Below are positions 56,129 to 56,566 of a DNA stretch of 64,000 nucleotides, piece by piece. A model generated the notes under the pieces. It had not been told where the DNA came from. It saw nothing but the letters and a program-made list of their open reading frames with translations, and did not search any database. How positions within the stretch are numbered: the stretch's first letter is position 1; each line of letters begins with the position of its first letter. The stretch spans positions 34,722,001 to 34,786,000 of the forward strand of contig CM097885.1 of the NCBI GenBank assembly GCA_044892525.1. The letters run 5' to 3'. The translations under genes were made by a program, and so were the position numbers. Source of the DNA: Schmidtea polychroa. Lineage: Eukaryota.

Positions 56129-56566
56129 TTAGAAATCGACCAATGAATTTAACTCATTCCGAACATTGTTAACAAATTCCCTATAGTCTAAATTTCTCAA
56201 CCCAAGCATGACAACCTTTCCACTTGAAAACACATTGACACATATAGGGTTATATTTTAATAGTCTTAATGCCGGAAACAATTCCGGTTCAAACATACAA
56301 TCACATTTTCTCGATATTTTGTATAAATTGATAGTATGTCCCATATCCATAGTAACGGTAATTGATTGAATTTTAATATTATTGATTCGATATTGTAATT
56401 TATTAATATCCAATGGTTCCTTACATCCCATAATTCTGCATTTGTCAGTCTTGAAAAATATTATCGGATATTTCCCGCTTCTATCGACAATTTGCTGTGG
56501 TTTTCCTGGTGGGAACCTCATTTTTGAAACATCAAAATTTCCTCGATAATTTATATTTGCAAGCAT
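56129..56566 (-). CDS. Polinton cargo: TATA-binding protein (TBP)-like protein, 145 aa
   Basis: Repeat 2 IKIQSITVTMD..INL..FEPELFPAL..VNVFSSGKVVMLG matches TBP KIQN..D..I.L..YEPELFPGL..LIF.SGKVV.TG; degenerate repeat 1 IIFFKTDKCRIMGCK. Confidence 0.85.
   Translation of the reverse strand: MLANINYRGNFDVSKMRFPPGKPQQIVDRSGKYPIIFFKTDKCRIMGCKEPLDINKLQYRINNIKIQSITVTMDMGHTINLYKISRKCDCMFEPELFPALRLLKYNPICVNVFSSGKVVMLGLRNLDYREFVNNVRNELNSLVDF

What the first reader, a model, noticed from the sequence alone, without database searches (positions are those of the whole stretch)
56129..56566. TBP-like gene carried by a Polinton/Maverick virus
Seen: an intact 145-aa ORF, head-to-head with the packaging ATPase. 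It has a well-preserved second TBP repeat (FEPELFPAL...VFSSGKVVMLG) and a shortened, degenerate first repeat (IFFKTDKCRIMGCK). Established: in TBP the EPE stirrup binds TFIIB, and the Phe residues of PELF and IF.SGK kink TATA DNA. TBP homologues occur in large nucleocytoviruses but are not part of the Polinton core gene set. Inference: the TFIIB-side half is kept and the TFIIA-side half eroded, so this could be a viral basal factor redirecting host Pol II to viral promoters, or a decoy. I do not know of it being described in this virus class.
Basis: partly seen in the sequence, partly recalled or inferred. Interest (0 to 1): 0.9.

Follow-up and report, generated by a model that had tools for sequence, protein, structure and literature searches.

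The report
Maverick virus's own late-promoter TBP
A virus-like Maverick element in an animal genome carries its own slimmed-down TATA-binding protein, and its capsid, packaging and integrase genes sit behind a non-standard TATA-like box, which suggests a self-contained early-to-late transcription switch that can now be tested.

Summary
The ORF is real. It is 145 aa, has a whole two-lobed TBP fold (Z 12.6, rmsd 2.7 Å over 144-145 residues) and lies head-to-head with the ATPase of a high-copy Maverick. Relatives recur beside Maverick genes in two distant lineages, with dN/dS 0.16-0.35. The first repeat is remodelled, not eroded: it lost two helices and one intercalating Phe, but its DNA-facing strands are as constrained as the second repeat's. 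The acidic TFIIB stirrup is invariant. Virion-module genes carry a box, [T/C/G]ATAAAC[A/G], about 35 nt before the ATG (ATPase 26 of 29, 0.8 expected; capsid 9 of 9). The box is kept at DNA level even inside upstream coding sequence. The TBP gene itself has a canonical TATA. Mavericks without this gene lacked the box at 0 of 40 starts, a small control with two near-misses. Best reading (0.7): a viral late-promoter TBP that recruits host TFIIB and Pol II, like herpesvirus ORF24 but stand-alone. Binding and transcription are not shown. One paper's figure legend labels a TBP in an adintovirus-like genome. The scan found this gene and box before on another copy in this genome, and a TBP on another genome.

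The parts
56129..56566 (-). TBP-like gene, 145 aa: first repeat with strands only (res 1-60), complete second repeat with acidic EPE stirrup (res 61-145)
56600..56607 (-). canonical TATA (TATATAAA) about 41 nt before the TBP-like ATG; host-type early promoter (inferred)
56635..56642 (+). TATAAACA box, 40 nt before the packaging ATPase ATG (intergenic)
57284..57291 (+). TATAAACA box inside the last ATPase codons (Y-K-Q), 36 nt before the basic-protein ATG
57722..57729 (+). TATAAACA box inside the basic-protein gene
57807..57814 (+). CATAAACA box, 60 nt before the integrase ATG
58923..58930 (+). GATAAACA box, 44 nt before the first ATG of the penton-like gene
59905..59912 (+). TATAAACA box inside the penton-like gene, about 100 nt before the pX-like ATG
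60350..60357 (+). TATAAACA box inside the pX-like gene, 42 nt before the major-capsid ATG
56675..57298 (+). packaging ATPase (Pox_A32)
   Evidence: E 1.2e-6
57320..57811 (+). basic, probably virion core protein (label inferred; no Pfam family)
57867..58994 (+). rve integrase region; this copy has an ATT-repeat insertion and a stop at 58671-58673
58967..60013 (+). penton-like gene (label from position and homologues in related loci; no Pfam hit)
60006..60395 (+). pX-like small basic gene (label inferred)
60392..61618 (+). major capsid protein-like gene (label from position and homologues; no Pfam hit)
61620..62033 (+). adenain-like protease (label from recalled motifs; GT..AG joint 61653-61691 in one contig)
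63345..64000 (-). part of the protein-primed DNA polymerase B; continues beyond the window
53181..55962 (.). accessory block beside the TBP gene (coiled-coil ORF, Bcl-2-like ORF below cut-off, acidic ORF, 135-aa and 97-aa ORFs); several have CCAAT plus canonical TATA

Best explanation
The protein is a virus-specific TBP that switches on the Maverick's late (virion-module) genes. Step 1 (inferred): host TBP/TFIID transcribes the TBP-like gene and its accessory neighbours from canonical TATA and CCAAT promoters. Step 2 (inferred): the viral TBP saddles the minor groove of [T/C/G]ATAAAC[A/G]. Its polar, re-engineered surface accepts the C at position 7 and a loose position 1. Step 3 (inferred): the kept acidic stirrup recruits host TFIIB and so Pol II. 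In this lineage the loss of the first-repeat helices removes the surface used by TFIIA, Brf1, Mot1 and TAF1 (recalled), leaving a factor outside TFIID and its inhibitors. Each of the ATPase, core, integrase, penton and capsid genes has its own box, so one small protein would turn on the whole module. Shown: fold, residue pattern, selection, box position and conservation. Not shown: DNA binding, TFIIB binding in cells, start sites, timing.
For: Fold is a whole saddle. Three Phe, the Pro and both stirrup Glu are invariant in 37 of 37. Invariant substitutions R101, C109 and N111 fall on the yeast positions I194, V203 and L205, the three that change TBP specificity in TBPm3 (PMC1636458 passages; register). 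Also S68/T70, R44 and N6 make the surface polar, as in KSHV ORF24 (10.1101/2025.08.25.672222 passages). Box at -75..-15 of the ATG, dereplicated loci, against base-shuffled expectation: ATPase 26 of 29 (0.8), capsid 9 of 9 (0.5), basic 3 of 3 (0.1), penton 7 of 11 (0.3), integrase 9 of 19 (0.7), protease 2 of 4, pX 1 of 6; TBP gene 1 of 60 (1.1) but canonical TATAWAW 34 of 60 (9.5). ATAAAC is the top 6-mer in an unbiased count, with median distance -35. Inside coding tails the box beats codon usage: ATPase 23 of 24 sites (10.2 expected), pX 9 of 11 (2.3), penton 10 of 20 (2.5), integrase 7 of 9 (3.2). It is enriched on the sense strand only in 10 of 11 loci tabulated. Of five ATPase-first hits, the one with this gene had the boxes. 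Controls: 0 of 40 starts. A third lineage that encodes its own TFIIB has a TBP without the acidic stirrup (2 of 2). TBP-TFIIB prediction: score 0.42, best control 0.00, runs agree in at least 92% of contacts, partner pLDDT at least 84. This is weak support only: at 0.60 or under the mark was reached by 5 of 78 solved complexes and by all 4 passing mismatches, and a like complex is solved.
Against: No binding or transcription data; no start sites, because only contigs could be laid. ATAAACA also fits the Forkhead consensus (recalled). The control is small: 7 loci from at most 6 elements, all incomplete, three of them 51-56% GC. One control without a detected TBP (L140) has TATAAACT before its ATPase and TATAAACG at -78 before the next gene. 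Gene and box may both be inherited from one ancestor; related loci are not independent, so the co-occurrence is not shown co-evolution. The basic-protein tail shows no excess (6 of 8, 5.5 expected). The window's protease gene has no box. L010 also has 9 boxes on its minus strand (3.7 expected). The host has at least six TBP paralogues that could read the box.
Confidence: 0.7

Rival explanations
1. The box is read by a host factor (a Forkhead protein, or host TBP or one of its paralogues), and the viral TBP does something else or only assists.
For: ATAAACA fits the recalled Forkhead consensus RYAAAYA. GTAAACA occurs before 2 of 29 ATPases (0.2 expected). The host has at least six TBP paralogues. 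Near-box sequences occur in L140, where no TBP was detected.
Against: Boxes are sense-strand and cluster at -31 to -49 (26 of 28 ATPase sites), like a core promoter. 10 of 72 sites end in G and 3 in T. GTAAACA was absent before the other gene classes. Yeast TBPm3 selects against C at positions 6-8 (PMC1636458 passage). The box persists across lineages whose ATPases share only about 38% identity.
Confidence: 0.15
2. The protein is a decoy or repressor: it soaks up TFIIB or sits on host TATA boxes to damp host transcription, and the box is a separate matter.
For: The TFIIB stirrup is invariant while one intercalating Phe and one central Asn are lost. TRF2 does not bind TATA after losing Phe (PMC10005294 passage).
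Against: A sink would not need invariant new residues across the DNA-facing sheet. Hundreds of near-intact germline copies (143 of the 150 best-scoring without a stop) argue against a strongly toxic product, though they may be silent. It does not explain the split between canonical and ATAAAC promoters.
Confidence: 0.1
3. The protein is a DNA-bending architectural factor for replication, integration or packaging, not for transcription.
For: It sits beside the packaging ATPase in 13 of 13 further genome loci and often upstream of it in metagenome loci.
Against: Its position moves in other loci (after the protease, after the penton). The stirrup is kept. The boxes precede genes, not ends.
Confidence: 0.05

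Closest known systems
Cellular TBP / TRF family (Pfam PF00352)
   Same: Two-lobed saddle, three of four intercalating Phe, the Pro after the third Phe, SGK turns, acidic C-lobe stirrup.
   Different: 30 residues shorter (first-repeat helices gone in this lineage), first Phe and second central Asn replaced, polar DNA face; forms its own branch (100/99) apart from eukaryotic TBPs and host paralogues.
Beta/gammaherpesvirus viral TBPs (KSHV ORF24, EBV BcRF1, HCMV UL87) with TATT late promoters
   Same: Virus-encoded TBP fold, Asn-rich polar interface, non-canonical TATA-like box before structural genes (passages; listing).
   Different: ORF24 is a large multidomain protein in a six-protein complex, binds Pol II directly, keeps four Phe and lacks the TFIIB acidic residues. 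This one is a bare 145-aa core that keeps them; no partner viral factor was found.
Nucleocytovirus and mirusvirus TBPs
   Same: Viral TBP homologues; 21 viral structure matches at E <= 0.001.
   Different: Those genomes are far larger and many carry their own RNA polymerase or TFIIB (recalled). Identity is only 9-19%. No relationship was resolved.
'TBP' label in an adintovirus-like (MELD) genome, Starrett et al. 2021, PMC8502044 Fig. 5
   Same: A TBP-similar gene in a polinton-class element.
   Different: A legend label only, in the section on non-animal datasets; no family, residue analysis, promoter or mechanism in the passages and sections read. I could not see which genome it is or whether it is this family.

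Membership tests
TBP superfamily | Two-repeat saddle fold | tested here: met
   Model aligns over 144-145 residues to TBP cores, Z 12.6, rmsd 2.7; next unrelated fold Z 6.0
TBP superfamily | Pfam PF00352 above cut-off | tested here: met
   51.6 bits against 22.9, second repeat only
Canonical TATA-binding TBP | Four intercalating Phe | tested here: not met
   F38, F97, F113 invariant; no Phe at the first-repeat stirrup position
Canonical TATA-binding TBP | Paired central Asn, one per repeat | tested here: not met
   N4 kept; second is invariant S68
Canonical TATA-binding TBP | Acidic TFIIB-binding stirrup | tested here: met
   E93 and E95 invariant in 37 of 37; sequence feature only
Canonical TATA-binding TBP | First-repeat helices H1 and H2 | tested here: not met
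   No helix of 4 or more residues before residue 81; sister lineage keeps both segments
Canonical TATA-binding TBP | Falls inside the cellular TBP clade | tested here: not met
   41 family rows on one side of a 100/99 branch; unrooted, long branches
Canonical TATA-binding TBP | Binds and bends TATA DNA and nucleates a pre-initiation complex | not testable with these tools
   needs biochemistry
Herpesvirus viral TBP (ORF24/BcRF1/UL87) | N-terminal Pol II-binding domain and C-terminal DNA-binding extension | tested here: not met
   All 145 residues are TBP core; ORF24 features
Herpesvirus viral TBP (works-like test) | Non-canonical box before structural genes but not before early genes | tested here: met
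Herpesvirus viral TBP (works-like test) | Box-dependent, late, replication-coupled transcription | not testable with these tools
   only contigs available
Maverick/Polinton (adintovirus) | pPolB, rve integrase and packaging ATPase | tested here: met
   PF03175 E 8.9e-6 and rve E 2.6e-7 (both just under cut-off on partial frames), Pox_A32 E 1.2e-6 over cut-off
Maverick/Polinton (adintovirus) | Jelly-roll capsid, penton and adenain genes | tested here: inconclusive
   No Pfam or NCBIfam hit; homologues recur in the same order in related loci; not folded
Maverick/Polinton (adintovirus) | Terminal inverted repeats and target-site duplication | tested here: inconclusive
   Comparison of the left region with the next 10 kb gave only a direct repeat

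The most novel reading that the evidence does not exclude
Animal Mavericks run a herpesvirus-like early-to-late cascade with a single 145-aa, specificity-switched TBP that recruits host TFIIB outside TFIID. This would be the smallest natural orthogonal TBP-promoter pair. Different Maverick lineages solved late transcription separately: TBP alone with an ATAAAC box, a TBP plus TFIIB pair, or host TATA only.
Probability: 0.55. Interest if true: 0.9.

Novelty: new variant of a known kind. Interest (0 to 1): 0.8.

Why it matters
Whether animal Mavericks are true viruses with a regulated productive cycle is an open question (recalled). A dedicated late factor with a matching box, held under selection inside coding sequence, argues that they are. 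It gives a defined promoter and protein to assay, and a transcript signature for finding active copies. It would also extend viral-TBP late transcription from large herpesviruses to elements of about 15-20 kb, and supply a natural altered-specificity TBP that fixes changes at the same three positions as the laboratory TBPm3 allele.

Tried and rejected
Artefact or chance ORF: rejected. Captured host TBP or pseudogene: rejected; host paralogues group with eukaryotic TBP, not with this family, and dN/dS is well under 1. Expression: no RNA holder listed on record; the four runs laid were contigs and gave no start sites. Larger controls: IMG/VR scans with the window ATPase and alignment A2 gave no relative; A3 and A4 gave 3 loci, of which L139 was too distant and was left out of the control count; the phage collection gave none; genome searches with distant ATPase and capsid queries were capped at the best 150 and 104 rows and I did not fetch those loci. 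L081, the one viral-collection hit to the profile, is an ordinary two-repeat TBP of a large virus. Host range: 16 of 16 cluster look-ups that returned gave no organism. ESM Atlas gave no usable hit for the 135-aa neighbour and only TBP clusters for a close relative. The wider residue counts use patterns that require some of the residues counted, so I rely on alignment A1 instead. The origin of the gene (host, archaeal-like or giant-virus TBP) was not resolved; no clade test was run. Literature searches for polinton/Maverick/adintovirus with TBP, TATA-binding protein, TATA-box binding, TFIIB, promoter motif or late genes found only the Starrett legend label.

Full report
OBSERVATION. The ORF exists as described: 145 aa, 56129-56566, minus strand, head-to-head with a Pox_A32-type ATPase 108 nt away. 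Pfam TBP scores E 8.7e-14 on residues 62-124. An AlphaFold2 model from a 37-sequence alignment has pLDDT 94.7. It matches TBPs in the PDB (Foldseek E about 2e-8) and aligns over 144-145 residues to yeast TBP 66-240 and human TBP 164-337 at Z 12.6, rmsd 2.7, with the next unrelated fold at Z 6.0. So it is a whole saddle that lacks about 30 residues; the model has no helix of four or more residues before residue 81.

CONTEXT. The gene lies in a Maverick/adintovirus: ATPase, basic protein, rve integrase, penton-like, pX-like, capsid-like and adenain-like genes on the plus strand, pPolB on the minus strand, and an accessory block to the left. Capsid, penton and protease labels rest on position, homologues and recalled motifs, not on family hits. 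Terminal repeats were not found. The host is an animal; its canonical TBP exon is 87-88% identical to mollusc, brachiopod and flatworm TBPs. The genome search scored the best 150 of 4183 candidates: all full length, 91-100% identical, 143 without a stop (biased to the best copies). 13 of 13 further genome loci, 51-95% identical, had the same head-to-head ATPase.

FAMILY. 42 close relatives at 39-88% identity were found, and 564 representatives at E <= 1e-10 with a profile, a set that begins to include ordinary TBPs. Of the best 80 of 174 metagenome loci, 40 by my count carry another Maverick gene; over all 81 loci the ATPase was seen in 27, integrase in 18, capsid in 12, protease in 12, pPolB in 6. 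Most of the rest are short contigs. Two lineages appear, with ATPases about 38% identical. The window's lineage lacks both first-repeat helices; the second keeps them. On a 60-row tree, 41 family rows form one side of a 100/99 branch, the helix-less group is 100/97, and eukaryotic TBPs and host paralogues lie on the other side (midpoint root, long branches, origin unresolved). Pairwise dN/dS between natural copies is 0.16-0.36 in the 9 of 11 pairs where dS was not saturated; the first repeat gives 0.07-0.44 and the second 0.20-0.31. The first repeat is therefore remodelled, not decaying.

RESIDUES. Kept in 37 of 37: F38, F97, F113, P98, E93, E95. Changed and fixed: the first Phe is gone; the second central Asn is S68; T70, R44, N6, R101, C109 and N111 replace hydrophobic DNA-facing residues. 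Counting from the Pro that PMC1636458 numbers 191, R101, C109 and N111 fall on I194, V203 and L205, the three residues whose change gives TBPm3 its altered specificity (passages; sequence). Other yeast numbers are recalled. The same paper states that the C-lobe reads the 5' half and the N-lobe the 3' half of the box, and that TBPm3 selects against C at positions 6-8. KSHV ORF24 also has a polar, Asn-rich face but lacks the TFIIB acidic residues (10.1101/2025.08.25.672222 passages). The stirrup's role with TFIIB is described in PMC10005294 (passages).

PROMOTER BOX. Reading upstream regions showed ATAAAC[A/G] before the ATPase. In dereplicated loci, within -75..-15 of the ATG and against base-shuffled expectation, it occurs at ATPase 26 of 29 (0.8), capsid 9 of 9 (0.5), basic 3 of 3 (0.1), penton 7 of 11 (0.3), integrase 9 of 19 (0.7), protease 2 of 4, pX 1 of 6 (four more at about -100). 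It occurs at the TBP gene in 1 of 60 (1.1), which instead has canonical TATAWAW in 34 of 60 (9.5). The 29 near-identical siblings were left out before counting, and starts were set to the nearest in-frame ATG, so some are off. ATAAAC is the top 6-mer in an unbiased count. Over 72 sites position 1 is T 43, C 25, G 4 and position 8 is A 59, G 10, T 3; the median ATPase distance is -35. Where the box lies inside the upstream gene it appears in two reading frames and exceeds codon usage: ATPase tail 23 of 24 (10.2), pX 9 of 11 (2.3), penton 10 of 20 (2.5), integrase 7 of 9 (3.2), but basic protein 6 of 8 (5.5). In the window, seven boxes lie on the plus strand between 56635 and 60357, while the window as a whole holds only the chance number, 30 against 29.4. 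The signal is positional, not a matter of abundance.

CONTROL. A search by ATPase alone gave five contigs. The one with this gene (L132) had boxes before ATPase, basic protein and integrase; the profile found no family member in the other three assemblies. With L138, L140 and L141 added, 0 of 40 starts had the box in the same interval: 22 in elements with no TBP detected and 18 in elements with a different TBP plus TFIIB; the 40 include two TBP genes and one misplaced start. Limits: few, incomplete, partly GC-rich contigs, and L140 has TATAAACT before its ATPase and TATAAACG at -78 before the next gene. Relatedness was not corrected for.

A THIRD SOLUTION. L138 and L136/L141 encode a two-repeat TBP overlapping a TFIIB-like gene. 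Their TBP lacks the acidic stirrup. The window's element has no TFIIB match among the 25 in the genome and keeps the stirrup. This fits use of host TFIIB, on two examples only. A complex prediction with a TFIIB 92% identical to the host exon (P0326) scored 0.42 against a best control of 0.00, with runs agreeing in at least 92% of contacts and partner pLDDT at least 84. The tool calls this weak: at 0.60 or under, 5 of 78 solved complexes and all 4 passing mismatches reached the mark, and a like complex is solved, so it may be memory.

MECHANISM. Most likely (0.7): host machinery transcribes the TBP-like gene and accessory genes from TATA/CCAAT promoters; the viral TBP then binds the ATAAAC box, recruits host TFIIB and Pol II, and turns on each virion-module gene. 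Loss of the first-repeat helices would remove TFIIA, Brf1, Mot1 and TAF1 contacts (recalled); since the second lineage keeps the helices and the same box, that loss is a refinement, not the basis of specificity. Rivals: a host factor such as Forkhead or a host TBP paralogue reads the box (0.15); decoy or repressor (0.10); architectural role (0.05). No binding, start site or timing was shown.

NOVELTY. Eight searches found one prior trace: a 'TBP' label in figure legends of Starrett et al. (PMC8502044: passages, sections 3.1 and 3.4, and part 1 of the supplement read; preprint 10.1101/697771: passages). The supplement was cut at 4 million characters, its slides were unreadable, and Table S1 and File S2 were not seen, so they may hold this family. 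10.1101/2022.05.25.493380 and PMC12220804 (passages) had nothing relevant. Herpesvirus and other papers were seen as listings only. Subscription reviews were not searchable. The scan noted the same gene and box on another copy in this genome (e1-7879962) and a TBP in a related element of another genome (e1-7352920); I saw these after reaching my reading, and they are not independent evidence. Verdict: a new variant of a known kind (viral TBP with its own late box), in a class where I found no such mechanism described. Interest 0.8.

Noticed in passing
L138:3582-4780 (+) and L141:1775-3042 (-): A third Maverick lineage carries a two-repeat TBP-like gene overlapping a TFIIB-like gene (Pfam TBP 7e-14 and 2e-11; TFIIB 5e-11 and 4e-6, with zinc ribbon). 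Its TBP lacks the acidic stirrup, falls outside this family on the tree, and its core genes lack the ATAAAC box. A viral TBP plus TFIIB pair in a Maverick deserves its own study.
   Followed up: partly
window 51849-52933: 12 TGASTCA (AP-1/ATF-like, label recalled) sites in 1.1 kb left of the accessory block; 19 in the window against 6.4 expected. Possible stress- or wound-responsive trigger for the early genes.
   Followed up: partly
window 53791-54138 (+): Bcl-2-like ORF (Pfam E 4.4e-4, below cut-off), running into an ATT repeat that ends in AG, so possibly spliced. Bcl2 homologues are reported in adintoviruses.
   Followed up: no
window 58255-58371: ATT-repeat insertion in the integrase bounded by GT and AG; it varies in length among genome copies and is absent in metagenome relatives. 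It looks like an intron.
   Followed up: partly
window 61653-61691: One contig of run X1 (RNA is only a guess) skips 37 nt with GT..AG ends at the start of the protease gene.
   Followed up: no
window 62045-63290 and L112:3076-3650: A block that starts AGTAGT and holds 21-22 nt tandem repeats occurs twice in the same orientation, on either side of the polymerase gene. Unexplained.
   Followed up: no
L113-L118; G000:C3 38.2-39.1 Mb and C1 23.8-24.2 Mb: The host has at least six TBP paralogues, some intronless and divergent, and 13 matches to an intronless TFIIB-like frame of about 304 aa in two clusters.
   Followed up: no
window 54942-55349 (-): 135-aa ORF conserved beside the TBP gene in 20 of 81 loci; no Pfam, NCBIfam or Atlas match. 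It might be a single-strand binding protein (impression only) or a partner of the TBP.
   Followed up: partly
window 57816 onward (+): A short Met-Gly-starting frame overlaps the integrase start, 94 nt behind the box at 57722; relatives in the second lineage also have small Met-Gly ORFs.
   Followed up: no
L132-L136: Maverick contigs sit inside four prokaryotic MAGs of GTDB, probably eukaryotic-virus contamination.
   Followed up: partly
window 1-51800: Host repeat landscape: decayed Ty3/Gypsy and DNA-transposon frames, long ATT and AT microsatellites (labels recalled).
   Followed up: no
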